Source of the DNA: Candidatus Gottesmanbacteria bacterium RIFCSPLOWO2_01_FULL_43_11b
Lineage (GTDB): Bacteria; Patescibacteriota; Microgenomatia; UBA10105; UBA927
Reading direction: 5' to 3'
Assembly: GCA_001780985.1 (NCBI GenBank)
Contig: MFJV01000001.1
Location: 37,466 to 101,465, forward strand
Length of the DNA stretch: 64,000 bases
The notes beneath the pieces are model-generated. The model worked only from the letters and a program-made list of their open reading frames with translations, did no database searches and was not told where the DNA came from. The translations under genes were made by a program, and so were the position numbers. Shown here one piece after another: positions 12,192-28,390 of the stretch (positions within the stretch are counted from its first letter, which is position 1; every line of letters starts with the position of its first letter).

Positions 12192-12220
12192 TTGACATTT
12201 ATAACTATAGGGTGTATATT
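12192..12220 (+). promoter_or_regulatory. Sigma70-type promoter (TTGACA-17-TATATT) for the giant surface protein gene
   Basis: Perfect -35, 17-bp spacer, good -10, about 30 nt upstream of the ATG. Confidence 0.5.
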
Positions 12221-12249
12221 CCACAGACTATCGGCCTAATGCAACAAAA

Positions 12250-15200
12250 ATGAAATTTTTCCACAAAAGCATTTCATTAATAACTGGCCTTCTCCTGGTA
12301 CTTCAATCATTAGTGCCGGCCCTTAGCATCGCTCCAAATTACGTTTTCGCACAAGATGCAGAAGAACAAGTTCAGGAGCAGGTTGAGCCAACGGCAGCGA
12401 TCGAACCATCTCCCGAACCCACGTTTGAACCAACTCCTACTGAAGAAGTTTTGCCTACTCCTACTGAAGAAGTAAGTCCGACACCGGAAACATCAGAACC
12501 TCCTCATGAAACAAGCCCCCCTGAGCCTGTCGAAGGGGACATTCTTGACGGTGTATCTTCTACTATAATGCCAACACCGCAAGTCAGTTCAGCTACGACG
12601 GAAGAAGGACAAGTTAATGCAATTCTTTTACATGAAGTTGAAGCAAATAGCCTTGATTTAGATTCAGTCGATCCTAAAAGTGCAACACTCTCAACAGATA
12701 AAGCTGATTATGCTCCCACAGACACAGTTGTTATCACAGGCACAAATTTTGATCCAAACACAAACTACACATTATCGATTACATCTGGTGACGAACCGGC
12801 ATATTCATTCCAGACGGCTATAACTACAGATGGTGAAGGAAGCTTTGTCTACGCCCACCAATTGGATGGTACGTATAGGCCAAACTATCAGGTAACAGTC
12901 ACCGCAGGGGAATCTACTGTGGCATCAACCACGTTTACTGATAGCCCTCCTTCCGGCTGTTTCAATGATTCAGCAGGTGCAAATGATGAACCAGGGCAAA
13001 AAGATTTATCAAAAGCGTGTGTAGACTATACAGGGCTTCCAACCTCAATTGACGTTGATTGGAATTGGGATGAAATTGCCTGGTCTGGTGCAAACACCGG
13101 TGATGCATGTAGTCTTTTTGATACGGATAACGATGGATTTGCAAATTATTCGCTGTGTGTTCGGGTTTCAGGTGATCCCGCAACATACCAAAATCATGTA
13201 CTCTTCTCATGTACCGATACAAAAGCAGATCGCTGTAGCGGTTCAGCAGGCATCGCAAATACGAGTTCCTGCACTGCTTCAGTCCAGTCTACAGATCCGT
13301 TTTTAACAGGTGATGAGTATCCTGATGACACAGGTGCAAGTTGTACAATAAATATGGCTGATGTCGGTGGAGCCACAGCAAGTCTTATTGATGTCTGTTC
13401 CTATCCATCTCAACAGCCCAATTCCGATCCATCAGACTGTATTTTTGCTTCAACTGCAAGTCAAACCGGACTTTTGGAGGTTCGAAAAGCATTAAGTCCA
13501 ACCACTGATTCCGGACTATTTAATCTTTCGATTAACAGCATTACATATGCTTTTGATGCTGGCCACAATGGTACTACTGGAGAAAAAGTCGTCGATACGG
13601 GCAATCACACCTTTGGTGAAACCCAAGGCACAGGTACGATTCTCAGCGATTACACAACAACAGTCCAATGTTTAAACGCTGCCGGTGCACAGGTTACAAC
13701 GACTGGAACTAACCCTTGGACTGTTAATATTGCCAATAACGCAGATATTGTTTGTACGATTACCAATACGCTCAACCAGGGCACACTCATCGTTGAAAAA
13801 GTGGTGGTTAATGACAATGGTGGCACACTCCTGGCTAATAACTTTTCTTTCCAAGTTGATGGCGGTACCGCTCAACCATTTGAAGCCGACGGCCACAATG
13901 AGATTACCGTAAGCCCTGGAACATATGATGTCACTGAACCGGCTGTGTCAGGCTATAGCACCACATATGATAACTGTACAGATGTCGTTGTTCCAAACGG
14001 TGGATCTGCTACTTGTATTATTACCAACAACGACCAGCAAGCGTATATCATTGTCGACAAGACAGTAGTTAACGACAACGGTGGATTAGCGGTTGCCAAC
14101 GACTTCCTTTTAACCGTTGATGGTAATCCAGTTTCAGACGGAGCGACCTTCGCAGTTAACCCAGGCGCTCACTCAGTCGGTGAAACGCCTCTTCCTGGCT
14201 ACACGGCCGGGGCTTGGGGTGGAGACTGTGACGTGAATGCAGGTGTCACTGTTAATCTTGGAGAAACAAAGACATGTACTATCACCAACGACGATCAGGC
14301 GGGAATGCTCATAGTCAAAAAGATTGTCACCAACGATAACGGTGGAACTTTGGAAACTGACGACTTTACTTTTGAAGTAAATGGCGGAGGCGCACAGGCA
14401 TTTGAAGCAGATGGCCAAAATGATCTTACGGTAGATGCAGGATCATATACCATAACAGAACCTACGGTTACAGGATATGAAACCTCGTATGACAATTGTA
14501 CGAGAGTTGCTGTCACAAACGGCGGATCTGCAACCTGTACGATCACAAATGACGATATTCAGCCACTTTTGACTGTTACGAAGATTGTCACCAACGATAA
14601 CGGTGGAAACGCGGTTATCTCCGATTTCCCGTTGTTTGTAAATGCAACACAGGTAACTAGCGGTGTACAAAACGGATTTAATGCAGGAAGTTACGTCGTA
14701 AGCGAAACGAGTCTAACTGGCTATACCGGAAACGTTAGCGGCAATTGTGCTGGAAACGGTTCTGTTACACTCGCAATTGGTGACGTAAAAGAATGTACGA
14801 TAACCAATGACGATGTTGCTCCTACGATTACTTTGATTAAATTAGTTAAAAACGATAATGGGGGAACGGCAGACGTTGGAGACTTTATACTCTCACTTGG
14901 CAACGGCAACGTCACGAGTGGTGTTCAAAATACTGTTAATGCAAACACAGCCTATGAAATTGATGAGGCCGGTCCTCTGGGATATGAATTTGTGTCTATT
15001 GCCGGCGACCCTGAATGTCCTTTGGTGCTCGCGGGGAACGTCACTGCAGACGAAGGAAAAAACATTACGTGTACAATCACCAATACCGACCAACCGGCAA
15101 CACTTACACTCATAAAGAACTTACCCAATGATAACGGAGGTACAGCGGGTGATGTCGCCTTCAACGTCTACATTAATACCGTCGCCTCAACATGGGGTAG

Positions 15201-17772
15201 CCACATTCTTGATGCAGGATCATACACAATAAGTGAAGACACGCTTTCCGGCTACACCGCGGGAATTTGGAGCGGCGACTGTGACGAAAACGGCAATGTA
15301 ACACTGCTTCCGGGCGATCAAAAAACGTGTGAAATTACCAATGATGATGAAGCCTCAACCTTGATAGTTAAAAAGATTGTAGTTGGTGGGTCAGCCAGTG
15401 CCAATGACTTCACATTTCAAGTGAATGGTGGAGAACCCAATCCGTTTGAAGCAGACGGTCAAAATGATCTGACACTCGATGCCGGAACGTATACGGTCAC
15501 AGAACCGGAAGTAACCGGTTATTCCGTCTCTTACGATAACTGTACCGAAGTTGTTATTCCAAATGGGGGCACGGAAACATGTACGATTACCAATACCCGT
15601 GATACAGGCGGCCTCACAGTTCATAAGCTCGTCGATAGCGACGCTGACGGTGTATATGAAGGCGCTGATGCAGAAGCAACTGTACTCGGGTTTGATTGGG
15701 GATTTGATCCAAGTGACACCCCCAACGCAATGGGCGCATCACTTTCCTTAGATACTGACAGTTACAATGTCTTTGAAAGTGGCGTTACTGGATATCACTC
15801 GGTCGGTTGGTTCTATACAAATAGTGAGGGAAGCTGTGAAAATCCTGCTGGCAGAGAACCTCCTGCAGTTGTTGATGTAACAAAAGACACAACCACAAAT
15901 ATCACATTCTGTAACACCCGCGATCTTGGAACAATCACAGTTCTTAAAAATATTGACTGGGATGAAAGCGGTCAAATCGGTGATCATCCAAATGATGTAT
16001 TGGGAGATACCACATGGACTTGGGATATTGAAAGCGGGCAGCAAGATATTGCAACCGGAGAATCAAGAACTTTAGCAACTGGAAGCTACACGATAACTGA
16101 AGACGAACAAACGTATTATCAGCTCGTCGGTTGGGTCTGTGACAATGACACGAGTGGTGAGTCAAATAGCATTCCGGTTGACCTTACCCAAGACGGTCAA
16201 AACATTACGTGTACATTCACCAATACACCTGATAAGGGAACTGTGACGGTAAACAAAGACGTTGATTCAGACGGTGATGGTGTTGTTGATATTTTTGGAT
16301 CTAGCGACTGGATTTGGGAATTAGGCAGTCTCGACTACCCAACCGGTACTACAGTAGACGTCGTACCCGGAGACTACTCTCTCACGGAATTTCAGGAGAC
16401 TGATTACCATGTTACAGATCTTACCTGTGATGATATCTCTTTGGGAGCAGTTGAAAGTACCCAAGTAAGCGTTGAACCGGGACAAGATATTACGTGTACA
16501 TTCACAAATACCCGTGACACTGGCGGACTTACTGTACACAAAATGGTTGATGGAGGTGACGGTAACTTTGTCTCTGCTGATCCCGGTGCATTTACCTGGG
16601 GATTTGATTTTGGTAATACCCCCAATGCAATGGGATCAGGACTTACCCTTGTTACGGGAAGCTACAATGTTTATGAAAGTGAAGTTCCCGGATATCACTT
16701 GACTGGTTGGTTCTATACGAATGACGATGCAAGTTGTGAAGATACTGATGGTGGTGAGCCTCCTGCAGTTGTCGATGTAACAAATGGTGACACAACTGAA
16801 ATTACATTCTGTAACGTCCGCGACACCGGTGACCTTCGAGTCAATAAATTTGTCGATACAGATGGCGACGGTGACTATGACTCATTTAATCCGGAAGCAT
16901 TTAAGTGGGGTACGGAAAGTGCTGTTCTTGCCGCTACAGATATGGGATCCAGTCAAACGCTGATTACAGGAACCTACGATGTCTTTGAAAATGATGTTCT
17001 CGGATATCAATTTACCGGTTGGTACACTGGTGATCCTCGGGAAAATCAATTTAGCTGCGATAACCCTGAATTTACAACGCTGCCGACTAACCTTAATGTT
17101 ACGGGTGAAGGATTGGAGATTACCTTATGTAATAAGCTTATGAATCCGGTCTTAACTATTTCAAAGACAAATGATGCTGGTGGAGACAAAAATCCTGGTG
17201 ACAGTGTTGTCTTTACCATTACCGTTGAGGCAACACAAAGCGCAGCGTATAACGTATTTGTCACCGATCTTCCGGATGGTGGATTCACCTACCGCGCAGG
17301 AAGCTGGACTGCAACCAAAAACGGCATTCCGTTTGCGATCACTGAACCGGTCTATGCATCTCCAGGACTCTGGTCAATCGGGGATATGAGTATTGGTGAC
17401 GTAGTTGTTCTTACCTATATTGCTGATATTGCTTCGGATATTACTCCGGGGCTTTACAAAGATCTTGTCTGGGCATTTGGTTGTATATTTGATACCGATT
17501 GTGTGGTAGGAGACGGCAATGATGTTTTGGCTACGGCAATTGACCCGGGATTTGTATCAGAAAACTATGCAGGAACAGGCGTAAATATTGTCAAAGAACA
17601 GCAAAATGGTTCTTCAATTACCGTCGAACAAAAATCAGAAGTTTTGGGGGCATCAACTGAGCTTCCGGCAACCGGAGCAAACGCCAAATGGCTTCTTGTT
17701 GCAGTATTACTATTCTTATCAGGTGTCGGATTTGTCTCTGCCGGAAGATTAGTTCGGAGGTATTATGCGTAA
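12250..17772 (+). CDS. Giant (1840 aa) cell-surface protein: signal peptide, Pro/Glu-rich stalk, at least 12 tandem Ig-like repeats, C-terminal LPATG sortase-sorting signal
   Basis: N-terminal signal peptide. Repeated roughly 90-aa modules (IVKKIVTNDNGGT...TCTITNDD). The C-terminus LPATGANAKWLLVAVLLFLSGVGFVSAGRLVRRYY is an LPXTG motif plus hydrophobic segment plus basic tail. Confidence 0.75.
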   Translation: MKFFHKSISLITGLLLVLQSLVPALSIAPNYVFAQDAEEQVQEQVEPTAAIEPSPEPTFEPTPTEEVLPTPTEEVSPTPETSEPPHETSPPEPVEGDILDGVSSTIMPTPQVSSATTEEGQVNAILLHEVEANSLDLDSVDPKSATLSTDKADYAPTDTVVITGTNFDPNTNYTLSITSGDEPAYSFQTAITTDGEGSFVYAHQLDGTYRPNYQVTVTAGESTVASTTFTDSPPSGCFNDSAGANDEPGQKDLSKACVDYTGLPTSIDVDWNWDEIAWSGANTGDACSLFDTDNDGFANYSLCVRVSGDPATYQNHVLFSCTDTKADRCSGSAGIANTSSCTASVQSTDPFLTGDEYPDDTGASCTINMADVGGATASLIDVCSYPSQQPNSDPSDCIFASTASQTGLLEVRKALSPTTDSGLFNLSINSITYAFDAGHNGTTGEKVVDTGNHTFGETQGTGTILSDYTTTVQCLNAAGAQVTTTGTNPWTVNIANNADIVCTITNTLNQGTLIVEKVVVNDNGGTLLANNFSFQVDGGTAQPFEADGHNEITVSPGTYDVTEPAVSGYSTTYDNCTDVVVPNGGSATCIITNNDQQAYIIVDKTVVNDNGGLAVANDFLLTVDGNPVSDGATFAVNPGAHSVGETPLPGYTAGAWGGDCDVNAGVTVNLGETKTCTITNDDQAGMLIVKKIVTNDNGGTLETDDFTFEVNGGGAQAFEADGQNDLTVDAGSYTITEPTVTGYETSYDNCTRVAVTNGGSATCTITNDDIQPLLTVTKIVTNDNGGNAVISDFPLFVNATQVTSGVQNGFNAGSYVVSETSLTGYTGNVSGNCAGNGSVTLAIGDVKECTITNDDVAPTITLIKLVKNDNGGTADVGDFILSLGNGNVTSGVQNTVNANTAYEIDEAGPLGYEFVSIAGDPECPLVLAGNVTADEGKNITCTITNTDQPATLTLIKNLPNDNGGTAGDVAFNVYINTVASTWGSHILDAGSYTISEDTLSGYTAGIWSGDCDENGNVTLLPGDQKTCEITNDDEASTLIVKKIVVGGSASANDFTFQVNGGEPNPFEADGQNDLTLDAGTYTVTEPEVTGYSVSYDNCTEVVIPNGGTETCTITNTRDTGGLTVHKLVDSDADGVYEGADAEATVLGFDWGFDPSDTPNAMGASLSLDTDSYNVFESGVTGYHSVGWFYTNSEGSCENPAGREPPAVVDVTKDTTTNITFCNTRDLGTITVLKNIDWDESGQIGDHPNDVLGDTTWTWDIESGQQDIATGESRTLATGSYTITEDEQTYYQLVGWVCDNDTSGESNSIPVDLTQDGQNITCTFTNTPDKGTVTVNKDVDSDGDGVVDIFGSSDWIWELGSLDYPTGTTVDVVPGDYSLTEFQETDYHVTDLTCDDISLGAVESTQVSVEPGQDITCTFTNTRDTGGLTVHKMVDGGDGNFVSADPGAFTWGFDFGNTPNAMGSGLTLVTGSYNVYESEVPGYHLTGWFYTNDDASCEDTDGGEPPAVVDVTNGDTTEITFCNVRDTGDLRVNKFVDTDGDGDYDSFNPEAFKWGTESAVLAATDMGSSQTLITGTYDVFENDVLGYQFTGWYTGDPRENQFSCDNPEFTTLPTNLNVTGEGLEITLCNKLMNPVLTISKTNDAGGDKNPGDSVVFTITVEATQSAAYNVFVTDLPDGGFTYRAGSWTATKNGIPFAITEPVYASPGLWSIGDMSIGDVVVLTYIADIASDITPGLYKDLVWAFGCIFDTDCVVGDGNDVLATAIDPGFVSENYAGTGVNIVKEQQNGSSITVEQKSEVLGASTELPATGANAKWLLVAVLLFLSGVGFVSAGRLVRRYYA

Positions 17773-18703
17773 ACTTGTTACAGCTCTAACCATATTCATG
17801 TTTGCAGGCGCTGTTTATGCGGCAAACCTTGACGTGCGAATTGAACAGCCAAAGTCACCGACCAACCAAAATAGTTTTCCTGTGCATTTTGTTGCTCTTG
17901 ATATATTAGACCGTCCGGTTACTGTTAAATGTTTCAAAAAGGGTCCATCCGATGGTGGATTTGTCCAGTTTGGCAGCGACATAAATCTTGCCTCGGGAGG
18001 AAACAGCGGAAATTGTGACGTCAATAGCTCTATTCTTACAGGAAACGGGACGTATGAATTTAAAGTAGAAGCAACTGCAGGTAGCGACTCTGATTCAGAG
18101 ACCACCAGTGTTGTCTATAATACAGACGGCCCGGGTGATCCGCGTGACTATCAGAAAAACAAAACTAACAGTTGTGAATACACCATTCACTTTAAAACTG
18201 CAGATGATGCAGGTAAAACAGTAAAAGTCGAAGTATACCGTTCAGAAAACATGTCATTTAATACAGACAGCGGTACGCGCGTAGGAACAGTCGGTGCGGG
18301 CTCAAATGAAACGAAAGATTTTACAAACACCATTCCTGACTGCAACAAAACCTATTACTATGCTATTCGATCTTTCGATAGCACCGGAAATGGCTCTGGA
18401 GTCGTCGGGGATAGCGTGACAACAACAACTGTTATTAACCCAACACCGACTCCGGGCGGAACGGCATCTGCAATTGCGGTAAGTGGCGGATCAGTATTGG
18501 ATGAAACAGCTCCGGAAACTACACCTGAGTCAACACCGACACCCCAACCTTCATTGGAAGATGTGGAAGGTAGTGTTGAAGGAATTGCAACAGGAGATGC
18601 ATCGTCATCTAACAATCTCTATGGATGGCTCCTTGGCGGTGGTATACTGGGAGTAGGAATATTGCTCTATGCCATCGCAAAAAGCCGCAAACAAGCTCGC
18701 TAA
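17765..18703 (+). CDS. Secreted protein with a C-terminal membrane anchor; possible minor sortase substrate or fibre subunit
   Basis: Signal peptide, Ig-like content, C-terminal GWLLGGGILGVGILLYAIAKSRKQAR. Translationally coupled to the upstream giant gene. Confidence 0.45.
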   Translation: MRKLVTALTIFMFAGAVYAANLDVRIEQPKSPTNQNSFPVHFVALDILDRPVTVKCFKKGPSDGGFVQFGSDINLASGGNSGNCDVNSSILTGNGTYEFKVEATAGSDSDSETTSVVYNTDGPGDPRDYQKNKTNSCEYTIHFKTADDAGKTVKVEVYRSENMSFNTDSGTRVGTVGAGSNETKDFTNTIPDCNKTYYYAIRSFDSTGNGSGVVGDSVTTTTVINPTPTPGGTASAIAVSGGSVLDETAPETTPESTPTPQPSLEDVEGSVEGIATGDASSSNNLYGWLLGGGILGVGILLYAIAKSRKQAR

Positions 18704-19280
18704 ATCGTTTACAAGCCTCGGTATCCTTCTTATTCTCATATCAGCAGTTATTGCTATCCTGACGTTTCTTCCTGTTGCCAAAGAAGAAATCAGCTATGCC
18801 TTCCGTCCAAAAAATATAACTGCTGAGATTGTCCCTGTTGACACGGACTTCGGTATCGTTATTCCCAAATTAAATGCGAATAGTAAAGTGATAACAAACG
18901 TCGACCCGTTTGACAGTCGAATTTACCAAATCGCATTGACCCAAGGTGTTGCCCATGCGAGAGGGACCGGACTTCCCGGAGCTCCCGGTAATGTTTTTTT
19001 ATTCTCTCACTCCTCAGTCAATTTTTATGAAGCATCCCGCTACAATTCAGTATTTTACCTCTTAACGAAACTTGAACTTGATGATGAAATACAGATTTAT
19101 TATCAAGGAAATAAATACACCTATACGATAAGAAACAAATCTATTGTGTTGCCTACTGATGTCCAGTATCTCAAAGCATTAAATGCTGATAGAGAAACGG
19201 TGACTCTTATGACCTGCTGGCCGCCGGGGACAACGTTTAAGCGTCTTCTTGTCATTGCGGAGCGTAAAGTTGACGAATAG
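18669..19280 (+). CDS. Sortase (transpeptidase)
   Basis: N-terminal TM, catalytic His region NVFLFSHS, active-site TLMTCWP (TLxTC). Confidence 0.7.
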   Translation: MPSQKAANKLAKSFTSLGILLILISAVIAILTFLPVAKEEISYAFRPKNITAEIVPVDTDFGIVIPKLNANSKVITNVDPFDSRIYQIALTQGVAHARGTGLPGAPGNVFLFSHSSVNFYEASRYNSVFYLLTKLELDDEIQIYYQGNKYTYTIRNKSIVLPTDVQYLKALNADRETVTLMTCWPPGTTFKRLLVIAERKVDE

Positions 19281-19307: not shown

Positions 19308-19787
19308 GTGAATATTGTCGTTATCATCATTGCCTCAATAATTGTTATTGCCGGTGCCCTCGCACGTCCTTCTAAAATTGAAGAGCAAGAACCAGTCCTT
19401 GGCGAAACAGCTACAGTTGAAGAAACTCCGACGCCAACTCCACAGAAGGATGCGAACCTTCCAACTATCACCCCCACCCCAACCCTGCAGCCACCCGAGA
19501 AGGATGCGAACCTTCTATGGCAGTATCCAAACAGCAGTATTATTACAAAAAGCGAGACTGCACTTATACTTGAATCCAATGGCGATGTGGATGCAATAAC
19601 CGATTGGTACAAAGAAAAAATTAAAGCCATGGGGATGAACGCAAAATCATTTGTCGTTACAAAAACGAACGGAAATGTCCTTAATAAACTTGTGGGTGAC
19701 AACGGAAACATCGAAATTCGCGTCGAAATTTCAAAATCCGCGGGTGAAAGCACTGTTCGGATTGTTGTGACCTATCATACCTCTTGA
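19308..19787 (+). CDS. Small membrane-anchored protein carrying two in-frame REP-like insertions (KDANLP) in its Pro/Thr linker
   Basis: GTG start, N-terminal TM. The two element copies are translated as QKDANLPTI and EKDANLLWQ. Confidence 0.4.
   Translation: MNIVVIIIASIIVIAGALARPSKIEEQEPVLGETATVEETPTPTPQKDANLPTITPTPTLQPPEKDANLLWQYPNSSIITKSETALILESNGDVDAITDWYKEKIKAMGMNAKSFVVTKTNGNVLNKLVGDNGNIEIRVEISKSAGESTVRIVVTYHTS
19445..19462 (-). repeat. REP-like palindromic element, copy b (GGAAGGTTCGCATCCTTC, reverse orientation)
   Basis: C-variant of the repeat loop, lying inside the coding sequence. Confidence 0.7.
19499..19515 (-). repeat. REP-like palindromic element, copy c (reverse orientation, C-variant)
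   Basis: GAAGGATGCGAACCTTC, 37 bp from copy b, in the same ORF. Confidence 0.7.
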
Positions 19788-19845
19788 CAGAGGCTATTTT
19801 TGTTGTTACTATACGCCAAATTCGACCTGCCCCGAAATCCTCATA

Positions 19846-20505
19846 ATGAAACATCGCAATTCGTCAACAATAACGCTTGAGCTTCCCAATGCTATGGCTG
19901 TGTTTATTTCCCGATTCAAACAAATAGTCTCACGACCGCTTGCTCGTGTAAATTTTAAACTTCCGAGAGATCCGCAAAAGAAATTACCGTACATTTTGCT
20001 CGGCGTCATTATCATTGGTGCGGTCGGCCTTGGAATCAATACACTGGTTAAAACCAGTGGAGATTCTAGAGTTGAGATAAAAGCTGCAAGGGCAACGCAG
20101 GCAATCAATAAAGAATTTTCTTTCCCTCTTAAAGACGACAAGGGGAAAGTTGTTACCACAATTACGTATACAGTAGAAGCAGCAGAACTTCGTGATGAAA
20201 TTGTTGTCAAAGGCCAACGGGCAAGTTCAGTCAGAGGAAGAACGTTTCTTACCATCCCTCTTAAAATTAATAATCCATATAATCAGGCAATAGAAATTCA
20301 GTCAAAGGATTACATCAGATTAATCGTCAATGGAAAGGACAAAGATCTTTTAGCTGCTGATATTCACAACGACCCGGTAACTGTACAAGCCTCTTCAACC
20401 AAACAAACCCGTCTTGGTTTTCCGATTAACGATACGGACAAAAACATTGTTCTCCGCGTCGGAGAACTTAACGGCACAAAAGAAGATATTACGCTTACTT
20501 TTTAA
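19846..20505 (+). CDS. Hypothetical protein with an N-terminal TM anchor
   Basis: ORF with hydrophobic segment ILLGVIIIGAVGLGINTLV. Confidence 0.4.
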   Translation: MKHRNSSTITLELPNAMAVFISRFKQIVSRPLARVNFKLPRDPQKKLPYILLGVIIIGAVGLGINTLVKTSGDSRVEIKAARATQAINKEFSFPLKDDKGKVVTTITYTVEAAELRDEIVVKGQRASSVRGRTFLTIPLKINNPYNQAIEIQSKDYIRLIVNGKDKDLLAADIHNDPVTVQASSTKQTRLGFPINDTDKNIVLRVGELNGTKEDITLTF

Positions 20506-20511
20506 AAACAC

Positions 20512-20715
20512 ATGGCACAGGCATTTATTCAGGGAACAGCCAAAGTCAAACTTTCCACACAAAAAATAACCCCGCAACTTCTTTCGGAAATAGAAGCAGC
20601 CCTCCATTTGGTCAGAAATTACGGAAGCATCGAAATCTACGTGCAGAACAGTATAGTCACCCAAATCACAGTTCGGAATATAAAGAAAACACAGGTTGGC
20701 TTGACTGGTACTTGA
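20512..20715 (+). CDS. Small DUF2292-like protein
   Basis: 67 aa. YGSIEIYVQNSIVTQITVRNIKK resembles the YGSV-I-VQDG-V-I short-protein family. Confidence 0.3.
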   Translation: MAQAFIQGTAKVKLSTQKITPQLLSEIEAALHLVRNYGSIEIYVQNSIVTQITVRNIKKTQVGLTGT

Positions 20716-20867
20716 CAAACGATATTTAATTAGGCTAAATAGTTCATAGTACTAGTGAATTAGATCACAATTCCACTGCCCCAAATAGTTTTTCCCTGCC
20801 CAACTAAAGAACGCTGACCGCGAACGGAGGCTTCCCTTCTTAGATCCTGAGCTTGTCGAAGGATTGA

Positions 20868-20888
20868 GGAGAGGCGCCTCCGTTTTTT
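20868..20888 (+). terminator. Putative intrinsic terminator (GGAG-AGGCGC-CTCC + T6)
   Basis: Short GC hairpin followed by TTTTTT. Lies in the long structured leader of the repeat-protein gene. Confidence 0.35.
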
Positions 20889-20984
20889 AATCCGCTTAAG
20901 CGGAAAACGGAGTTCTGAAGTGCACTAGCCCCGCGAAGCTTTAGCGAAGTGGGGAATATACGACGAAGGGAGGTGAAAATAATA

Positions 20985-22226
20985 ATGAATAAATTATATA
21001 AACAATTCGTCTCTGTTTTGGCGACCGGGTCTTTGTTACTCAGCGTCGTTGCTCCAGTTTCAGCGACAACGCTCGAAATTTCTGGAAACGGCAGTAGTAG
21101 TGACAACGACATCACTTTTGATGTCGACCAGACCACATCAGTAACCCAGACCAATGACGCCGATGTTTACAACAACATTGATGCCGAGGCAAAAACCGGT
21201 GGGAACGATGCAAATGATAACACTGGCGGCGATGTTTCTATCGAAACGGGTGATGCCACGACTGAAGTCAAGGCTGCAACAACCGTCAATAGCAATTCCG
21301 CTTCCGTCGATTGTTGTGCAACGCAGGATGTTGACGTGCTCATTTCCGGTAACGGATCTGACAGCGACAACACGGTGGATCTTGACATAAATCAAGACTC
21401 AAAGTCTGGTACATATGTCAAACAGACGAACACTGCTGACGTGACTAATGAAGTCGATGCGGATGCAAAAACTGGCTGGAATGACGCGGAAGACAACACT
21501 GGTGGCGATGTTTCTATCGAAACCGGGGATGCTGAAACGTCAGTTACCTTATCCACAACCGCTAATGCCAACTGGGCACAGGTCGGTGATGGTGGACAGG
21601 GTAGCGCTGTCAGCTTGAAAATTCTCGGCAATGGAACCCACAGTGACAACGACATAGACTTGGATCTTGACAGTCTAATTTCTGTCATTCAATCCAATGA
21701 CGCGGATGTCTACAACGATGTTGATGCGAACGCAAAAACTGGTGGGAACGATGCCAATGACAACACTGGTGGTGATGTTTCCATCGAAACAGGTGACGCA
21801 GAAACAACAGTAGAAGTCGACAACATGGTCAACTTTAACTGGGCAGACGTTGACTGCGGATGTCTCTTTGATGTTCTCGGAAAAATAGCCGGAAACGGTT
21901 CTGATTCCGATAATACAATCACAGCAGACCTTTATCCTGAACTTTTTGTCGACCAAGACAACACTGCTTTAGGAAGTGGTGGGTTGAATAATGATATTGA
22001 TGCGGACGCAAAAACCGGCCACAACGATGCAGAAGACAACACTGGTAGCGTAGAGGGAGGAGATCCATCTATCGAAACCGGCGATGCCGAAAGTACTGTT
22101 GAAGTTTCCAACGCAGGAAACAGCAACGTCTTCGGTGAAGATGTTCCGAGTGATTGGCCAGAGTTCGAATTCAACTTCAACCTTACGTTGAGTTGGTCAC
22201 AGCTTATGGCTTTACTCGGTCTGTAA
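20985..22226 (+). CDS. Secreted tandem-repeat protein (four roughly 90-aa modules); paralog family member 1
   Basis: Strong SD GGGAGGTG. Signal peptide. Modules read ISGNGSxSDN...DADAKTGGNDAxDNTGGDVSIETGDA...VDCC. Confidence 0.55.
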   Translation: MNKLYKQFVSVLATGSLLLSVVAPVSATTLEISGNGSSSDNDITFDVDQTTSVTQTNDADVYNNIDAEAKTGGNDANDNTGGDVSIETGDATTEVKAATTVNSNSASVDCCATQDVDVLISGNGSDSDNTVDLDINQDSKSGTYVKQTNTADVTNEVDADAKTGWNDAEDNTGGDVSIETGDAETSVTLSTTANANWAQVGDGGQGSAVSLKILGNGTHSDNDIDLDLDSLISVIQSNDADVYNDVDANAKTGGNDANDNTGGDVSIETGDAETTVEVDNMVNFNWADVDCGCLFDVLGKIAGNGSDSDNTITADLYPELFVDQDNTALGSGGLNNDIDADAKTGHNDAEDNTGSVEGGDPSIETGDAESTVEVSNAGNSNVFGEDVPSDWPEFEFNFNLTLSWSQLMALLGL

Positions 22227-22323
22227 ATACCTATCGGTTCGTAGGGTGATTCTTAGGAAGCACTTCGCTAAGACACCCTACGACCGAGAAGGAAAAAAAG
22301 TTTAAAGTTTTAAAGTTAAACTA

Positions 22324-24435
22324 ATGAAGAAATTACAAAAAATAGTTTCGGTGTTAAGCGTAGGACTCTTAGTCTTTGGACAACTTGCGCCGATTGTCCG
22401 TGCTCAGGAAGCACCAACAGCTCCTACTGCGCCTTCTGCGCCTGAAGCACCGACATACGACGAACCAGCTCCCACTCCTCCTCCAGCACCGACCCTTGAG
22501 GAAGAAACAACGACTAATACTGAAGAAACACCTCCCGAAGAACAGCAAACTGAAGAAACCACTGTTACCCAAACGTCTGAAACAGAAGAAGGGGGGGAGG
22601 ACGGTTCGGGGGGAAATGTCGGTGATACAGAAATTAACACCGGTGACGCAACGACAACAGCAACAGGCATGACAGAAGCAAATAACAACTCCTCCTCCAT
22701 AGCCGATTGTTGTGAGAGCGAAGGAATAACTGTAGCAAATACAGGAAATGGGTCTGATTCTACTAATACTGGTTCAGTTGTTCTTGCTGATACAAACAAT
22801 ACCTTTCAGAATAATTCTGCAACAGTCGTAAGTGACGTCGATGGCGAGAGCAACACAGGTGACAACGATTCTTCCGGAAATGTCGGCAATACCACAATTA
22901 ATACCGGCGACGCCAATACATCCGGAACACTTATAACCGCAGTCAATACCAATGTCGACGGCATTATGGTTTCGGAGTTTAACGTTATCGACGATCATGT
23001 TGGCGATATCATCCTTGACTTTAATTCCGGCTGTATTAGCGGCTGTGGTGGCGATACAGCAATCATAAACAGCGGAAACGGATCTGATTCAACTAATACA
23101 GGAACTGCTGATATCACAAATGCTGACAACACGTTCCAGACAAATGACGCAACAGTGCTTAACGGAATGGTATTGGATTCAAATAGCGGTGACAACACAG
23201 GGGACAAGAACACTGGCGGGGACACAACTATTACAACCGGTGATGCCAATATATCTGCTAATCTTTTAACATTTGCCAACAACAACCTTTCCGGTGACGT
23301 CATCTATTCTGTTGTCAATATCTACGGAGATCTCCTGGGAGACATCATCTTCCCGGAGAGTGAATTTACAAACTGCTGCGGCACGTCAGCAACTCTGGCA
23401 AATACCGGCAATGGTTCAGATTCAACAAATACGACTGATGTAAATCTTACGAACACTGATACATCAGTTCAGAATAATGTCGCTATCATAGAAAACAATC
23501 TCGACATGGAGGCAACAAGTGGAGACAACAGTACGAGCAAAAACACCGGTGGAAACAATTCAATTACCACAGGAGATACGAGTATCGACGCACAGGTTGT
23601 TAATGTCGCAAACACAAATATTGACGGTGGAAACTGGTGGTTGGTGTTAGTGAATGAAGCAGGTAACTGGATCGGACATATATTGGGCGCAGACGGCTCA
23701 TACGCCGGATCTGTGGGAACTGAGTTTGAAGTTAATGAAGCAGGAGAGATCACAGTAACCAATAGCGGGAATGGTTCAGGATCGACCAACACGGGTACGG
23801 TCAATCAAGACACATCAAATACCACAATTCAAAATAACACTGCACACGTGGTTAATAATGTAACACTTGATGCCAACACGGGAGGCAATAGCGCGAGTAA
23901 AAATACCGGCGGCAACAGTACGATCGAAACAGGTGATGCCAATATAGTTGCCAACATCGTTAACTTCGTCAACAACAACATAATAGGCGGAGGCAAGCTA
24001 TTCGTTACGGTCATTAATGTATTCGGCAGCTGGACAGGAAACTTCCTTCCACCCGGTTTCCAAAAACCAGCGGCACAGGCAGCAAATAATCCGGAAATTG
24101 GCGGAGCAGACGTACACCAAGGATCAAACAGTCAATCAAACTCAAACTCACAATCGTCTAACTCATCCGGAAACAGCGGAAACAGTTCAACAACGACAAC
24201 TGCTACAGTTGAGACGACAGATCCGGAGGGTACAACGCAATTAACGTTTGCCGCAGGACAATTGGGGAGTGTCCATATATTAGGTACAACCACCACTGAT
24301 GATGCGGAACCGGTTACCCAGGGCCGTCAGGTAGTCCAAATAAATCTTGCATGGTTGCTTTTGTTGATACCATGTGCTATACTCCTCGTCGTGTTGCGCC
24401 GATTACGACGTAACGCATCTGCCACTGCCTCCTAA
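22324..24435 (+). CDS. Secreted tandem-repeat protein (703 aa) with a C-terminal hydrophobic anchor; paralog family member 2
   Basis: Signal peptide, a Pro/Ala/Thr/Glu-rich region, repeated NTG-D-NTGGN-I-TGDA modules with CC/CxC pairs. C-terminal LLLIPCAILLVVLRRLRRN. Confidence 0.55.
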   Translation: MKKLQKIVSVLSVGLLVFGQLAPIVRAQEAPTAPTAPSAPEAPTYDEPAPTPPPAPTLEEETTTNTEETPPEEQQTEETTVTQTSETEEGGEDGSGGNVGDTEINTGDATTTATGMTEANNNSSSIADCCESEGITVANTGNGSDSTNTGSVVLADTNNTFQNNSATVVSDVDGESNTGDNDSSGNVGNTTINTGDANTSGTLITAVNTNVDGIMVSEFNVIDDHVGDIILDFNSGCISGCGGDTAIINSGNGSDSTNTGTADITNADNTFQTNDATVLNGMVLDSNSGDNTGDKNTGGDTTITTGDANISANLLTFANNNLSGDVIYSVVNIYGDLLGDIIFPESEFTNCCGTSATLANTGNGSDSTNTTDVNLTNTDTSVQNNVAIIENNLDMEATSGDNSTSKNTGGNNSITTGDTSIDAQVVNVANTNIDGGNWWLVLVNEAGNWIGHILGADGSYAGSVGTEFEVNEAGEITVTNSGNGSGSTNTGTVNQDTSNTTIQNNTAHVVNNVTLDANTGGNSASKNTGGNSTIETGDANIVANIVNFVNNNIIGGGKLFVTVINVFGSWTGNFLPPGFQKPAAQAANNPEIGGADVHQGSNSQSNSNSQSSNSSGNSGNSSTTTTATVETTDPEGTTQLTFAAGQLGSVHILGTTTTDDAEPVTQGRQVVQINLAWLLLLIPCAILLVVLRRLRRNASATAS

Positions 24436-24453
24436 ACCTGCCTTTTATTTTTT

Positions 24454-25038
24454 ATGAAATTTTTCTTATCTATTATTTCATTTCTTCTTGCCGGATATTT
24501 TTTTGCAACCGCAATACACGCGGATGAATTTATTATTGAAGGCAATGCAGATGGAAGTGAAAATTCCATAAACTTCGAGTCGTCTTCACAAACAAACGTC
24601 ACGCAATCTAACCAAATGGATGTAAATAACCAAGTTGATGCCGATGCCAACACAGGTGGGAACAACACTGATGGTGGTTCCGTAGAAACCGGCGATGCGT
24701 CGGTCTGGGTACAAATCAAAAATTTCTTTAACTGGAATCAAGCAGATGTTGACGACTGTTGCCCGGAAGGCGTTACGCCAACCCCAACAGTCTACGATCC
24801 CGGTAAACCCACACCAACACCAACCACAGCCCCTGGAGTTGGAGGACCAGGACCATCCAATGGAGATGGCGGAAATGGTGGGGGAGGAAACGGTGGAGGC
24901 GGTGGTGCCGGAGAAGTACTTGGACTTTCAGCTGCAGCGGGTGAACCGACGACAGAAATCCTCTTCTACACTTTGGGTGCGCTATGCCTAGCCCTCGGAG
25001 GCGCCATGTTGCGCCAACCAAAAAATCTTCTCTCATAA
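24454..25038 (+). CDS. Small secreted repeat-family protein (one module) with a PT/Gly linker and a C-terminal hydrophobic anchor; paralog 3
   Basis: Signal peptide. Module NADGSENSINFES...DADANTGGNNTDGGSVETGDAS...DDCC. C-terminal TM plus RQPKN. Confidence 0.5.
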   Translation: MKFFLSIISFLLAGYFFATAIHADEFIIEGNADGSENSINFESSSQTNVTQSNQMDVNNQVDADANTGGNNTDGGSVETGDASVWVQIKNFFNWNQADVDDCCPEGVTPTPTVYDPGKPTPTPTTAPGVGGPGPSNGDGGNGGGGNGGGGGAGEVLGLSAAAGEPTTEILFYTLGALCLALGGAMLRQPKNLLS

Positions 25039-25643
25039 TAGCTTGGATTTCTTCCCATCGTCGCACAGTTGGTTTATGGTTTCTCATGCTCGGATTCCTT
25101 TTTGTCACGTTTCCGACTGCCTACAAAACTCTCTACACAGGAACATTAACACCTCCACAGGCTTCTCTAGAAACATCATCTTCAACAACAAACATTTTTG
25201 ATTTTGGCCCGATTCGCATTGACCAAAAACTCTTAGGTTTAACTGTTCCTTCTCAACAACCTCTTCGCATTGTGATTCCTTCGCGAAAAATTGATCTCTC
25301 TGTTGTTGAAGCACCTGTTATCAACGGGTACTGGGAACTTTCTGAAACAACCGCTTCTCATGGCGTAGGATCGGCTAATCCGGGTGAAATCGGCAATACC
25401 GTCATCTTTGCTCATGCCAGAGAGGGTCTCTTTTTACCTATTCGGGACATTCAAGTGAGTGAGGTTATCTATGTACTCACCAAAGACCGCTGGTATCGCT
25501 ATACAGTGGCTCAGACACAGCTTGTAGATCCCAATCAGGTAGAAGTTATCGCTCCCACCCCAGACGAAACGCTCACTCTTTTCACCTGCTCCGGTTTCTT
25601 CGATACCAAGCGTTTGATTGTAATTGCGAAGCCACAACGATAG
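24984..25643 (+). CDS. Sortase (second copy)
   Basis: N-terminal TM, catalytic His VIFAHA, active-site TLFTCSG. Its stop TAG lies within a REP-like element. Confidence 0.6.
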   Translation: MPSPRRRHVAPTKKSSLIIAWISSHRRTVGLWFLMLGFLFVTFPTAYKTLYTGTLTPPQASLETSSSTTNIFDFGPIRIDQKLLGLTVPSQQPLRIVIPSRKIDLSVVEAPVINGYWELSETTASHGVGSANPGEIGNTVIFAHAREGLFLPIRDIQVSEVIYVLTKDRWYRYTVAQTQLVDPNQVEVIAPTPDETLTLFTCSGFFDTKRLIVIAKPQR

Positions 25644-25660
25644 AAGGTTCGCATACTTCC
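25643..25660 (+). repeat. REP-like palindromic element, copy d (GAAGGTTCGCATACTTCC)
   Basis: Exact copy, overlapping the sortase stop codon. Confidence 0.8.
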
Positions 25661-25663
25661 ATA

Positions 25664-25722
25664 AAAAAGCCCCACCTGGGCAGACCTGTCCGCCAACTGG
25701 CGGGCCATGATGGGGCTTTTTC
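25664..25722. terminator. Bidirectional intrinsic terminator between convergent genes
   Basis: AAAAAGCCCCA...(internally structured loop)...TGGGGCTTTTT, with symmetrical A/T runs on both sides. Confidence 0.6.
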
Positions 25723-25738
25723 TCTCCAAAATCGAGAA

Positions 25739-26338
25739 TTACTCAGTCAATGTATTCGTTGAACCTGTGACAGTTACACCTGTCGTGTCTGTTGCATTTC
25801 CGCTTGTATTCGTAACAACACTTCCTGTGTTGCCGTTAGCTCTATTGCGTCGAGAGCGAGCTCGAGACACCGCTAAAACCCCGACTAACTGTCCATTACT
25901 TTGTCCTCTCACCTTCGTGTTAACGAGTGGAGCTACTACCGTATTTGTTGAATCTTTTCCGTTGCCACTAATTTCGGTTGTCGGAGGGTCTCCGCATCCA
26001 CACGGACTACTCAACGTTGCGGTATTAGAGCTTCCAGTCACAACAACAGATGTTGTAGCGGTCGCATCACCACTCGTGTTAGTCACTACTGAGTTAGTGT
26101 TATTATTTGCTTGATTTCCTCCCGTTTTTGCCGAAGAGAACGCACCAATCAAAATTAATGACTCGTTTGATTGTCCAACAACATCGGTATTTGTTTCTGA
26201 TGCAACAATCGTGTTCGTTGATCCTGCGCCATTATCCATGATTTCAAGATCAGCAGCTAGAGCCACTGGAGAAACGATAGTTGCAACCAAACTTAATGAA
26301 GCAACTGTTGCACCAAATTTTACTAATTGTTTTTGCAT
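25739..26338 (-). CDS. Secreted repeat-family protein on the opposite strand (paralog 4)
   Basis: Strong SD AAAGGAGGTGAAAC. Signal peptide. ISGNGKDSTNTV...ANNNTNSVVTNTSGDAT modules, CGCG pair. Confidence 0.5.
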   Translation of the reverse strand: MQKQLVKFGATVASLSLVATIVSPVALAADLEIMDNGAGSTNTIVASETNTDVVGQSNESLILIGAFSSAKTGGNQANNNTNSVVTNTSGDATATTSVVVTGSSNTATLSSPCGCGDPPTTEISGNGKDSTNTVVAPLVNTKVRGQSNGQLVGVLAVSRARSRRNRANGNTGSVVTNTSGNATDTTGVTVTGSTNTLTE

Positions 26339-28386: not shown

Positions 28387-28390
28387 TAAT

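What the first reader, a model, noticed from the sequence alone, without database searches (positions are those of the whole stretch)
12192..26338. Sortase-dependent cell-surface island: 1840-aa LPXTG fibre protein, four paralogous NTG/TGDA-repeat secreted proteins with CC motifs, and two sortases
Within 13 kb lie: (i) a giant protein with at least 12 tandem Ig-like repeats and a canonical LPATG-hydrophobic-RRYY sorting signal; (ii) a coupled 312-aa secreted protein with a C-terminal anchor; (iii) a sortase; (iv) three consecutive secreted proteins plus one divergent paralog. The paralogs are built from a roughly 90-aa module (ISGNGSxSDN ... DADAKTGGND-DNTGGDVSIETGDA ... VDCC) that I do not recognise. 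Their C-terminal hydrophobic tails lack LPXTG. (v) A second sortase closes the block. Three genes carry the strongest Shine-Dalgarno sites in the window (GGAGGTGAAA), implying high expression. This looks like a dedicated surface-fibre or S-layer-like assembly system, possibly with a non-LPXTG sorting signal for the repeat family. Such a system would be interesting for an episymbiotic small-genome bacterium.
Basis: partly seen in the sequence, partly recalled or inferred. Interest (0 to 1): 0.65.

Follow-up and report, generated by a model that had tools for sequence, protein, structure and literature searches.

The report
Two sortase-linked surface-protein cassettes in Microgenomates
This stretch of a tiny-genome Gottesmanbacteria (candidate phyla radiation, CPR) bacterium holds two separate sortase gene cassettes: an ordinary giant wall-anchored fibre, and a widely conserved, undescribed operon of beta-solenoid surface proteins that probably forms part of the cell coat.

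Summary
The genes, repeats and both sortases are real, with minor corrections.

**Not one island.** It is two cassettes placed side by side downstream of tRNA-Val.
- **Cassette 1:** a 1840-aa SpaA-domain LPATG protein, a 312-aa membrane-anchored partner and sortase 1. This triad recurs in unrelated genomic neighbourhoods.
- **Cassette 2:** D, E, X (DUF2292), F, G, H, sortase 2 and divergent J. It keeps this order in about 48 Microgenomates genomes.

**The repeat proteins.** F, G, H and J are built from an ~88-aa module. The module matches no Pfam, NCBIfam or PDB sequence. It has 3,086 cluster representatives among 1.84 billion proteins. AlphaFold models it as a beta-solenoid with no close structural relative.

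**Four anchoring modes.** F and J are secreted without an anchor. G has a transmembrane helix behind a conserved INLAW motif. H carries a sorting signal.

**Sorting signal tracks sortase type.** H orthologs next to sortase-1-like enzymes carry LPxTG. Those next to sortase-2-like enzymes carry L[SA]x[TA][SA]G; the window's H has LSAAAG.

**Conservation.** F is as conserved as trigger factor.

**New RNA leader.** An undescribed, strand-specific hairpin leader precedes F in about 40 loci, and J here.

**Best reading (inferred, not shown).** Wall- and membrane-anchored paralogs tether abundant secreted paralogs into a surface coat, following chaplin/curli-like logic.

The parts
12063..12135 (+). 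tRNA-Val(CAC). It marks the variable slot where cassette 1 sits.
   Evidence: ARAGORN and Rfam. In relatives L002, L003, L004, L016, L019 and L020 the same tRNA lies upstream of D-E-F-G, directly or after up to ~3 kb of other genes, with no A-B-sortase 1 there.
12250..17772 (+). A: 1840-aa fibrillar LPATG surface protein made of SpaA/CnaB-type domains. Predicted substrate of sortase 1.
   Evidence: Pfam SpaA_2 at 219 bits with 9 stretches, plus SpaA_4 and SpaA_3. Tail is VLGASTELPATG, TM, RRYY. Nine E-box-like Y.[VI].E..GY motifs and no YPK pilin motif. A promoter-like TTGACA-17-TATATT lies at 12192-12220.
17765..18703 (+). B: 312-aa secreted protein with a C-terminal TM anchor. It is translationally coupled to A by an 8-nt overlap.
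   Evidence: No Pfam or NCBIfam hit. The family has 284 homologs of about 310-330 aa. B sits between a giant SpaA protein and a sortase in L022, L050, L051 and L052; the 8-nt overlap with A is the same in L050-L052.
18669..19280 (+). Sortase 1, distantly class-C-like and unclassified.
   Evidence: Pfam Sortase 75.6 bits. Best NCBIfam model is class C at 63 bits against a cut-off of 160. Best PDB relatives are class C sortases at 34 bits or less. Orthologs in A-B-sortase triads are 51-57% identical.
19308..19787 (+). D: 159-aa protein with an N-terminal TM helix, a Pro/Thr linker and a small extracytoplasmic domain. First gene of the conserved operon.
   Evidence: Found upstream of E in 28 of 48 loci. 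No Pfam family.
19846..20505 (+). E: 219-aa membrane-anchored protein with a weakly DUF4352-like beta-sandwich domain.
   Evidence: Present in 45 of 48 loci directly upstream of F. DUF4352 is matched by 6 of 45 orthologs, best E 2e-4.
20512..20715 (+). X: 67-aa cytoplasmic DUF2292 (YezD-like) protein.
   Evidence: Pfam DUF2292 at 24.9 bits against a cut-off of 22. Conserved between E and F in 42 of 45 loci, with motif YGSVEIYVQNxxVTQITVRNIKKT.
20810..20984 (+). Conserved leader of F. It has a 5' box GCTGACCGCGAACGGAGGC, then a hairpin with an invariant 10-bp base and a co-varying upper stem, then a U-tract (20810-20892). After that come GAAGTGC, a second hairpin and the SD GGAGGTGAAA.
   Evidence: nhmmer. 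Alignment and RNAalifold give 23 pairs, 10 of them with compensatory changes. The covariance model scores 48-79 bits upstream of F in about 39 loci. In metagenomes, 31 of 31 testable copies precede a module-bearing ORF. No Rfam family matches.
20985..22226 (+). F: 413-aa secreted protein of four modules. It has no anchor, is very acidic, and is the probable major subunit.
   Evidence: 100% identical to P0001. 4 modules. AlphaFold pLDDT 77, all-beta. Only beta-solenoid structural hits. 59-62% identical to L002-L004, against 61% for trigger factor. Net charge -67.
22324..24435 (+). G: 703-aa paralog. It has a signal peptide, a disordered Pro/Thr-rich N-terminal linker, 4.5 modules each followed by a conserved aromatic hairpin, a disordered stalk, an INLAW motif and a TM helix with a basic tail.
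   Evidence: AlphaFold module cores reach pLDDT above 90, residues 585-665 are disordered, and residues 675-701 form a helix. The INLAW-TM tail is conserved in 47 of 48 orthologs (the exception is a contig-end fragment).
24454..25038 (+). H: 194-aa paralog. It has one module, a CC pair, a Pro/Thr- and Gly-rich stalk, then VLGLSAAAGE, a TM helix and a basic tail. Predicted substrate of sortase 2.
   Evidence: A source (UniRef) gives P0393 a name that begins 'Gram-positive cocci s...' (cut off in the output), consistent with an LPxTG-anchor annotation.
24984..25643 (+). Sortase 2, distantly class-E/A-like and unclassified.
   Evidence: Pfam Sortase 80.8 bits. Best NCBIfam model is class E at 55 bits against a cut-off of 160. 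Best PDB hit is 5utt at 38 bits. Only 25% identical to sortase 1, and it falls in a separate cluster.
25739..26338 (-). J: 199-aa secreted two-module paralog. It has no anchor, is near-neutral with a basic patch, and carries a CGC pair between the modules.
   Evidence: J-like genes lie on the opposite strand after the sortase in 22 loci.
26429..26511 (-). Second copy of the leader hairpin, upstream of J.
   Evidence: Box match with 2 mismatches. Covariance model 49.3 bits, E 8e-10. Fold z-score -6.2. A promoter-like site at 26553-26525 lies just upstream.

Best explanation
The region holds two independent sortase cassettes.

Cassette 1 (A-B-sortase 1). Sortase 1 cleaves the LPATG signal of the 1840-aa SpaA-domain protein and links it to the cell wall as a single-molecule fibre. 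B is a membrane-anchored partner of unknown role.

Cassette 2 (D-E-X-F-G-H-sortase 2, plus J) is a core operon of Microgenomates. Its four paralogs are rods built from an undescribed ~88-aa beta-solenoid module and differ in how they are held:
- H is attached covalently to peptidoglycan by the operon's own sortase through a variant signal, L[SA]x[TA][SA]G (LSAAAG in this genome).
- G is held in the membrane by a C-terminal helix on a long stalk.
- F (very acidic, four modules) and J (two modules, basic patch) are secreted in large amounts without any anchor.

I infer that F and J dock onto the anchored paralogs by module-to-module contacts. The conserved Cys pairs at module junctions may stabilise these contacts. 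The result would be a surface coat of fixed composition. This is the logic of chaplins (sortase-anchored long forms plus secreted short forms) and of curli (nucleator plus major subunit).

Shown here: gene content, paralogy, synteny, anchor types, and the match between sortase type and motif type.
Inferred: cleavage by sortase 2, co-assembly, and the coat function.
For: Separate cassettes:
- D-E-F-G-H-sortase-J is syntenic in 48 loci without A-B-sortase 1. Only L022 has both side by side.
- A-B-sortase triads occur in three unrelated neighbourhoods. Their tails are LP[AS]TG and their sortases are 51-57% identical to sortase 1.

Sortase and substrate pairing:
- All 21 operon sortases of the sortase-1-like cluster whose neighbouring H gene was identified sit next to an H tail with LP[AVI][TS]G, or LAAAG in one case.
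- Sortase-2-like enzymes sit next to GL[SAP]x[TA][SA]G tails (10 of 12; the two exceptions, L040 and L044, have aberrant H ORF ends).
- 15 of 16 one-module H homologs retrieved independently carry L[SA]x[TA][SA]G. The most divergent one carries LAYTG.
- A and H are the only proteins in the window with such tails.

Fold:
- The F model has pLDDT 77 and is all-beta.
- Functional amyloids FapC and CsgA rank among the best Foldseek hits, though none is significant.

Core structural role:
- F is as conserved as trigger factor.
- Module counts are fixed: F 4, G 4-5, J 2, H 1 or 3.
- Cys pairs sit at the same junctions in all four classes.

High and coordinated expression of the unanchored subunits:
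- F and J carry GGAGGTGAAA, and strong SDs are conserved upstream of J orthologs.
- F and J share a dedicated leader element.

Disulfide plausibility: MdbA-like oxidoreductase and VKOR families are reported as enriched in CPR (PMC6744442).
Against: - There is no direct evidence that F, G, H and J bind one another or polymerise. No multimer prediction was possible.
- AlphaFold confidence is moderate. Four of the five F models were poor (mean pLDDT 35-53), and the arrangement between modules is uncertain.
- Structural matches are generic. Foldseek finds nothing at E <= 0.001.
- The window's own H has Ala at the position of the canonical Thr (LSAAAG). No sortase is known to cleave such a site, so H could simply be a membrane protein here.
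- The sortase/motif match involves related genomes, so the number of independent changes is small.
- The roles of D, E, X and B are unexplained.
Confidence: 0.55

Rival explanations
1. One reading: one dedicated island, in which both sortases and all the proteins build a single fibre or S-layer-like structure. A would be its shaft and the repeat proteins its accessory or basal parts.
For: All the genes are adjacent, and all but J lie on one strand. L022 also has A-B-sortase next to E-F-G, with an H-like LAVTG protein between them.
Against: In 46 of 48 loci the repeat operon lacks A-B-sortase 1. The closest relatives have tRNA-Val followed by D-E-F without A-B-sortase 1 in between. A-B-sortase triads occur far from any repeat operon. 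A varies from 1502 to 2684 aa, and in L050 carries an added VWA domain, whereas F and G are fixed in size.
Confidence: 0.05
2. F, G, H and J are independent adhesins or host-recognition proteins of an episymbiont. Each acts alone, and they do not co-assemble into a common structure.
Against: Host-recognition proteins usually diverge fast and vary in length. Here F is as conserved as trigger factor. Module numbers, Cys positions and gene order are fixed across Gottesman-, Woese-, Levy-, Davies- and Chisholm-bacteria. Four differently anchored copies of one module in a fixed operon fit an assembly better than four separate adhesins.
Confidence: 0.2
3. H's tail in this genome is only a membrane anchor. 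Sortase 2 then serves other substrates encoded outside the window, and the L[SA]x[TA][SA]G motif is a decayed, non-functional remnant of LPxTG.
For: The window's motif LSAAAG lacks both the Pro and the Thr of the canonical signal. All characterised sortases recognise a PXT core, or AXT for class E (PMC5148588). Only 64 kb of the genome could be scanned for other substrates.
Against: The variant motif is conserved in position and pattern in 15 of 16 one-module H homologs and in 10 of the 12 loci with a sortase-2-like operon enzyme. It always sits next to that sortase type. A decayed signal would drift instead. The H and sortase 2 genes overlap by 55 nt. Sortase 2 keeps TLFTC and is 52-61% identical to its orthologs in L002-L004 and L016 (46-54% in L019 and L020).
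Confidence: 0.15
4. The repeat proteins are not a structural coat. Instead they provide a physico-chemical function of an Asp/Asn/Thr-rich solenoid surface, for example binding Ca2+ or other metals, spacing the wall, or binding ice or minerals.
Against: There is no GGxGxD nonapeptide and no HemolysinCabind or other Pfam match. This reading does not explain four anchoring modes, the dedicated sortase or the conserved Cys pairs. It is also compatible with a Ca2+-stabilised coat, so it is not fully exclusive.
Confidence: 0.1

Closest known systems
Streptomyces chaplins with class E sortases (ChpA-C with LAXTG, SrtE1/SrtE2; short secreted ChpD-H)
   Same: One paralogous family is split into sortase-anchored members and freely secreted members that assemble on the surface. 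The sortase recognises a signal without Pro at P3 (LAXTG; PMC5148588). Sortase 2's best class model is class E. Conserved Cys pairs are present (for chaplins this rests on my own knowledge).
   Different: The domain is unrelated: an ~88-aa acidic beta-solenoid module instead of the ~40-aa hydrophobic chaplin domain. There is no Pfam match. This system has an additional TM-anchored paralog (G). Its motif also departs at P1 and P1' (T/A, S/A). Here everything lies in one operon with its own sortase.
Curli (CsgA/CsgB) and Fap (FapC/FapB) functional amyloids
   Different: The matches are not significant and there is no sequence relation. Curli and Fap need an outer-membrane channel (CsgG, FapF) in diderm cells. 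Here anchoring is by sortase and a TM helix in a monoderm-like CPR cell. Polymerisation is not shown.
Sortase-anchored fibrillar adhesins of Gram-positive bacteria with SpaA/CnaB-type domains
   Same: Protein A has tandem SpaA_2, SpaA_3 and SpaA_4 domains, E-box-like motifs, an LPATG signal and an adjacent sortase.
   Different: A has no YPK pilin motif. Its sortase reaches no class-specific cut-off, with class C at 63 of 160 bits. The conserved, translationally coupled partner B has no described counterpart.
Beta-helix/RTX S-layer proteins such as Caulobacter RsaA
   Different: There are no RTX nonapeptides, no type I secretion signal or genes, and no known S-layer anchoring domain. Lattice formation was not tested.
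Pam pili of CPR bacteria (bioRxiv 10.64898/2026.03.03.709456)
   Same: A CPR-restricted surface filament operon, reported to include Microgenomatia, with membrane-anchored accessory proteins.
   Different: Pam pilins have Ig-like folds and assemble by donor-strand exchange with chaperone-like PamC and PamD; the paper names no sortase as part of the pam system. The proteins here are beta-solenoids with a sortase.

Membership tests
Sortase superfamily (PF04203, peptidase C60) | Sortase domain above the curated score | tested here: met
   75.6 and 80.8 bits against a cut-off of 26.6.
Sortase superfamily (PF04203, peptidase C60) | TLxTC active-site motif with a conserved His upstream and Arg downstream, and an N-terminal membrane anchor | tested here: met
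   Read directly. Sortase 1 has LFSHSS, TLMTCWP and KRLLV. Sortase 2 has IFAHAR, TLFTCSG and KRLIV. Both have N-terminal hydrophobic segments.
Sortase classes A-F (NCBIfam class models) | Score above the class-specific cut-off (140-166 bits) | tested here: not met
   Sortase 1's best is class C at 63.3 of 160. Sortase 2's best is class E at 55.5 of 160. PDB relatives reach 38 bits at most.
LPXTG cell-wall sorting signal substrates | LPXTG, then a hydrophobic stretch, then a basic tail at the C-terminus, plus an N-terminal signal peptide | tested here: met
   Protein A ends in LPATG-ANAKWLLVAVLLFLSGVGFVSAG-RLVRRYYA.
LPXTG cell-wall sorting signal substrates | The same tripartite signal in the repeat proteins | tested here: inconclusive
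   H has the hydrophobic stretch and basic tail, but LSAAAG in place of LPXTG. Orthologs carry LPxTG, LAxTG or LSxTSG at the aligned site, matched to the sortase type. G has an INLAW-TM tail without the motif. F and J have no such tail. Cleavage is not testable here.
Sortase-assembled pili (class C sortase plus pilins) | Pilin motif (WxxxVxVYPK) with a Lys for polymerisation | tested here: not met
   There is no YPK anywhere in A.
SpaA/CnaB-type prealbumin-fold domain proteins | Tandem SpaA-family domains above the cut-off | tested here: met
   SpaA_2 scores 219 bits with 9 stretches. SpaA_4 scores 33.2 against a cut-off of 27.3.
Curli (Curlin_rpt) and Fap amyloids | Sequence match to the repeat family, and an outer-membrane secretion partner | tested here: not met
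   No Pfam match in F, G, H or J, nor in 52 F orthologs. Structural similarity is weak only. No CsgG- or FapF-like gene lies in the operon.
RTX beta-roll proteins | GGxGxD nonapeptide repeats (HemolysinCabind) | tested here: not met
Bacterial S-layer proteins | A known anchoring domain (SLH, CWB2 and the like) | tested here: not met
   No Pfam or NCBIfam domain is found in F, G, H or J.
Bacterial S-layer proteins | Self-assembly into a two-dimensional lattice, and high abundance | not testable with these tools
   Only indirect signs of abundance are available: strong SD sites and a dedicated leader.
Pam pili of CPR | Ig-like pilin fold with donor-strand exchange, and chaperone-like PamC/PamD | tested here: not met
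   The predicted fold is a beta-solenoid. The paper's description of Pam differs from this.
Rfam RNA families (for the F/J leader) | Match at the gathering score | tested here: not met
   Nothing at the gathering score over the whole window. Only noise (E 0.6-0.9) appears at 20700-21000.

The most novel reading that the evidence does not exclude
The D-E-X-F-G-H-sortase-J operon encodes the main proteinaceous envelope layer of Microgenomates, that is, the S-layer or sheath seen on ultra-small CPR cells. The layer would be a self-assembling lattice or fibre coat made from a previously undescribed beta-solenoid module. It would be tethered to both membrane and peptidoglycan, use a new sortase specificity (L[SA]x[TA][SA]G), and be controlled by its own undescribed RNA leader, possibly through the DUF2292 protein X.
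Probability: 0.3. Interest if true: 0.85.

Novelty: new variant of a known kind. Interest (0 to 1): 0.7.

Why it matters
CPR/Patescibacteria make up a large share of bacterial diversity, yet little is known at the molecular level about their cell envelope. Apart from type IV pili and the recently reported Pam pili, I found no described surface structure for them.

This operon is a concrete, lineage-wide candidate for a core envelope structure of Microgenomates. It has thousands of homologs, a fixed architecture and a housekeeping-level rate of change.

It provides three directly testable items:
- a new domain family for structural work;
- a sortase clade paired with a non-canonical sorting signal, which bears on sortase specificity and protein-ligation tools;
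- a conserved RNA leader specific to the genes for the secreted subunits.

Tried and rejected
- Pfam, NCBIfam and PDB sequence searches of the module and of 52 F orthologs found no family. This includes a permissive scan at E up to 0.5.
- The afdb50 library was not available.
- Identity with the CPR Pam pilus operon was rejected. Pam has an Ig-like fold, assembles by donor-strand exchange, and names no sortase as a component.
- RTX, curli and chaplin membership was rejected on sequence.
- A as a polymerised pilin was rejected, because it has no pilin motif.
- G's INLAW motif as a sortase signal was rejected. It is near-invariant whichever sortase type is adjacent, and it forms the start of the predicted TM helix.
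- The leader hairpin as a known RNA was rejected by Rfam at the gathering score and at E <= 1.
- A simple coding explanation for the leader box is unlikely. It has 19 consecutive near-invariant bases at a divergence where the proteins are about 50% identical.
- Literature searches for sortase or LPXTG together with CPR or Microgenomates found no description of this operon.
- I could not inspect model coordinates. Cys-Cys distances and the stacking of modules therefore remain unknown.


Full report
**Source and observation.** The window comes from Candidatus Gottesmanbacteria bacterium RIFCSPLOWO2_01_FULL_43 (Microgenomates, CPR). Protein F is 100% identical to its hypothetical protein A3A79_00360 on a 1.02-Mb contig.
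- A (12250-17772) has 9 SpaA_2, 2 SpaA_4 and 1 SpaA_3 stretches and a canonical LPATG/hydrophobic/RRYY tail.
- Both sortases pass the Pfam cut-off and have TLxTC motifs.
- An HMM of F's modules finds 4 modules in F, 4.5 in G, 1 in H and 2 in J (E 1e-13 to 1e-166). It finds nothing else in the 64 kb.
- Corrections: F starts at 20985 (413 aa). F and J have no hydrophobic tail. GGAGGTGAAA precedes F and J only, and two unrelated genes near 41.2-41.6 kb.

**Two cassettes, not one island.** A search of one genome per species returned 48 loci with an F ortholog. They come from Gottesman-, Woese-, Levy-, Davies- and Chisholm-bacteria.
- Mapping the window's proteins onto these loci gives a near-constant order: D, E, F, G, an H-type protein, a sortase, and often a J-type gene on the opposite strand.
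- A-B-sortase 1 is absent there, except in L022.
- In the closest relatives the order is trigger factor, DUF5660 protein, tRNA-Val, then D-E-F-G directly or after up to ~3 kb of other genes.
- In the window, A-B-sortase 1 sits between that tRNA-Val (12063-12135) and D.
- B has 284 homologs. In three unrelated neighbourhoods B lies between a 1640-2684-aa SpaA-domain protein and a sortase 51-57% identical to sortase 1. The 8-nt A/B overlap is the same, and the tails read VLGASxxLP[AS]TGA.
- Cassette 1 is therefore an ordinary, if CPR-flavoured, sortase-anchored fibrillar protein with a conserved partner. It has nine E-box-like motifs but no YPK pilin motif.

**The repeat module.**
- It matches nothing in Pfam, NCBIfam or PDB sequences, even in a permissive scan of 52 orthologs.
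- A profile of the window's 11 modules finds 3,086 cluster representatives (E <= 1e-3) among 1.84 billion proteins. They fall mainly into classes of about 410-430 aa with 4 modules, about 720-790 aa with 5, and about 500 aa with 5.
- Those that carry names are CPR, mostly Microgenomates.
- AlphaFold with 52 orthologs gives an all-beta model of F with mean pLDDT 77.
- Foldseek finds nothing at E <= 0.001. Its best hits are FapC (0.037) and a CsgA (0.24).
- The G model shows confident module cores, a disordered N-terminal Pro/Thr linker, an ~80-residue disordered stalk and a C-terminal helix.
- My reading of the sequence is that each module has about four ~20-residue rungs with Asn/Gln/Gly ladders.
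- A Cys pair (CC, CxC or CxxxC) is conserved after odd-numbered modules in all four paralog classes.

**Anchoring, and how the sortase and the motif match.**
- F orthologs end in an acidic/aromatic stretch plus LSxLLxLLGL. J orthologs end without a tail. G orthologs all end in (K)KxxxINLAWLLL..P, a TM helix and a basic tail.
- H orthologs end in a sorting signal whose form depends on the neighbouring sortase. The operon sortases fall into two clusters that are about 25% identical to each other.
- All 21 sortase-1-like enzymes whose neighbouring H gene was identified sit next to LP[AVI][TS]G tails, with one LAAAG.
- Sortase-2-like enzymes sit next to GL[SAP]x[TA][SA]G tails (10 of 12 loci; L040 and L044 have aberrant H ORF ends): LSAASG, LSATSG, LAATSG, LSDTSG, LPVTSG, and the window's LSAAAG.
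- 15 of 16 one-module H homologs retrieved independently carry the variant. The most divergent has LAYTG.
- A source (UniRef) name for the window's H begins 'Gram-positive cocci s...' (cut off in the output), consistent with an LPxTG-anchor annotation.
- Neither sortase reaches any class-specific NCBIfam cut-off. The best are class C at 63 of 160 bits and class E at 55 of 160.
- Class E enzymes are the known case of a signal without Pro (LAXTG; PMC5148588).
- The genome thus seems to hold two orthogonal pairs: sortase 1 with LPATG (A), and sortase 2 with LSAAAG (H). Cleavage itself is inferred.

**Other operon parts.**
- D and E are small proteins anchored by an N-terminal helix. E is weakly DUF4352-like.
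- A 67-aa cytoplasmic DUF2292 protein, X, lies between E and F in 42 of 45 loci.
- Downstream of X lies a conserved non-coding element. It starts with a 5' box, GCTGACCGC(A/G)AACGGAGGC.
- A hairpin follows. Its 10-bp base (AAACGGAGGC/GCCTCCGTTT) is invariant. Its upper stem changes by compensatory substitutions in 10 of 23 pairs. A U-tract comes next.
- A covariance model finds the element upstream of F in about 40 of 48 loci, at 48-79 bits on the sense strand against 39 bits or less on the antisense strand.
- In 977 kb, the model's only other independent hits are upstream of J in the window and in L003, apart from weak secondary hits in the same X-F spacer of L035 and L045.
- Of the metagenome contigs holding the 16-mer plus the hairpin, 31 of 31 with enough sequence have a module-bearing ORF within 383 nt.
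- No Rfam family matches.
- I cannot tell whether it is an attenuator, an mRNA-stabilising 5' structure, or an insulating terminator placed next to a promoter.

**Mechanism.** Four paralogs of one solenoid module come in four anchoring states: wall-linked, membrane-linked, and two free forms. They sit in a fixed operon with a dedicated sortase.
- Module numbers and Cys positions are fixed.
- The free forms carry the strongest ribosome-binding sites and a shared leader.
- F is 59-62% identical to L002-L004, the same as trigger factor at 61%.

This pattern fits a multi-subunit envelope structure in which anchored paralogs tether or nucleate abundant secreted ones. It fits better than a set of fast-evolving adhesins. 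The closest functional analogies are chaplins with class E sortases and curli or Fap. None of these families' defining sequence features is met, so this is an analogy of logic, not membership.

The acidic charge of F and G (-67 and -68) and the basic patch of J suggest electrostatic or cation-mediated contacts. Disulfide formation is plausible, since oxidoreductase families are reported as enriched in CPR (PMC6744442). Co-assembly, coat geometry and the roles of D, E, X and B remain untested.

**Novelty and limits.** I found no paper describing this operon, module, motif or leader. The CPR Pam pilus is a different system. The claims about function rest on comparative genomics and moderate-confidence models. 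The sortase/motif match involves related genomes, so it does not represent many independent events.

Noticed in passing
window 20810-20984 (+) and 26429-26511 (-); also L001-L046 just upstream of F, and L003 15741-15844 (-): An undescribed, strand-specific RNA or DNA element specific to the F and J genes. It has a conserved 5' box GCTGACCGCAAACGGAGGC, a hairpin with an invariant SD-like/anti-SD-like base (CGGAGGC/GCCTCCG) and a co-varying upper stem, and a U-tract. No Rfam family matches. It could be an attenuator, a stabilising leader or an insulating terminator.
   Followed up: partly
window 20512-20715 (+): A small cytoplasmic DUF2292 (YezD-like) protein is conserved between E and F in 42 of 45 loci, directly upstream of the leader element. 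It is a candidate regulator of that leader. This is speculation.
   Followed up: partly
window 24395-24435 (G C-terminus) and G orthologs in L001-L048: A near-invariant (K)KxxxINLAWLLLxxP motif sits at the start of G's transmembrane helix. Conserved aromatic hairpins (for example VVNIFGDLxGDIILP and WWLVLVNEAGNW) follow each G module and are absent from F. They look like interaction surfaces, but their partner is unknown.
   Followed up: partly
F residues 110-111 and 291-293; G 129-130, 237/241 and 351-352; H 102-103; J 113/115: Cys pairs (CC, CxC or CxxxC) are conserved at module junctions in all four paralog classes across the loci. Whether they form vicinal, inter-chain or metal-binding sites could not be tested.
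   Followed up: partly
window 12063-12135 (+): The slot between tRNA-Val(CAC) and gene D varies between relatives. Here it holds A-B-sortase 1. In L002 and L003 it holds the methyltransferase-like gene and its neighbour, which in the window lie after J (26593-27675).
   Followed up: yes
window 29278-29387 (+): A TPP riboswitch scores 61.7 bits against a gathering score of 54.3, downstream of the region.
   Followed up: no
window 27691-28422 (-): An IS200-like Y1 transposase domain protein (Pfam Y1_Tnp at 29.2 bits against a cut-off of 23) lies close to the cassette. Relatives of it are present in L003, L008 and L042.
   Followed up: no
window 41214-41223 and 41634-41643 (+): Two more exact copies of the strong SD GGAGGTGAAA precede small cytoplasmic-looking ORFs of 133 and 82 aa with unknown function.
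   Followed up: no
loci L003, L004, L006, L010, L023, L025, L029, L032, L033, L035-L038 and L041-L047 (record titles): Many public MAG records that carry this operon, whose clearly named members are all CPR, are titled 'uncultured Gammaproteobacteria bacterium'. Some F or G orthologs are named 'SNF2 domain/helicase...' or 'Filamentous hemagglutinin family outer membrane protein'. These labels look like placeholders or mis-annotations.
   Followed up: no
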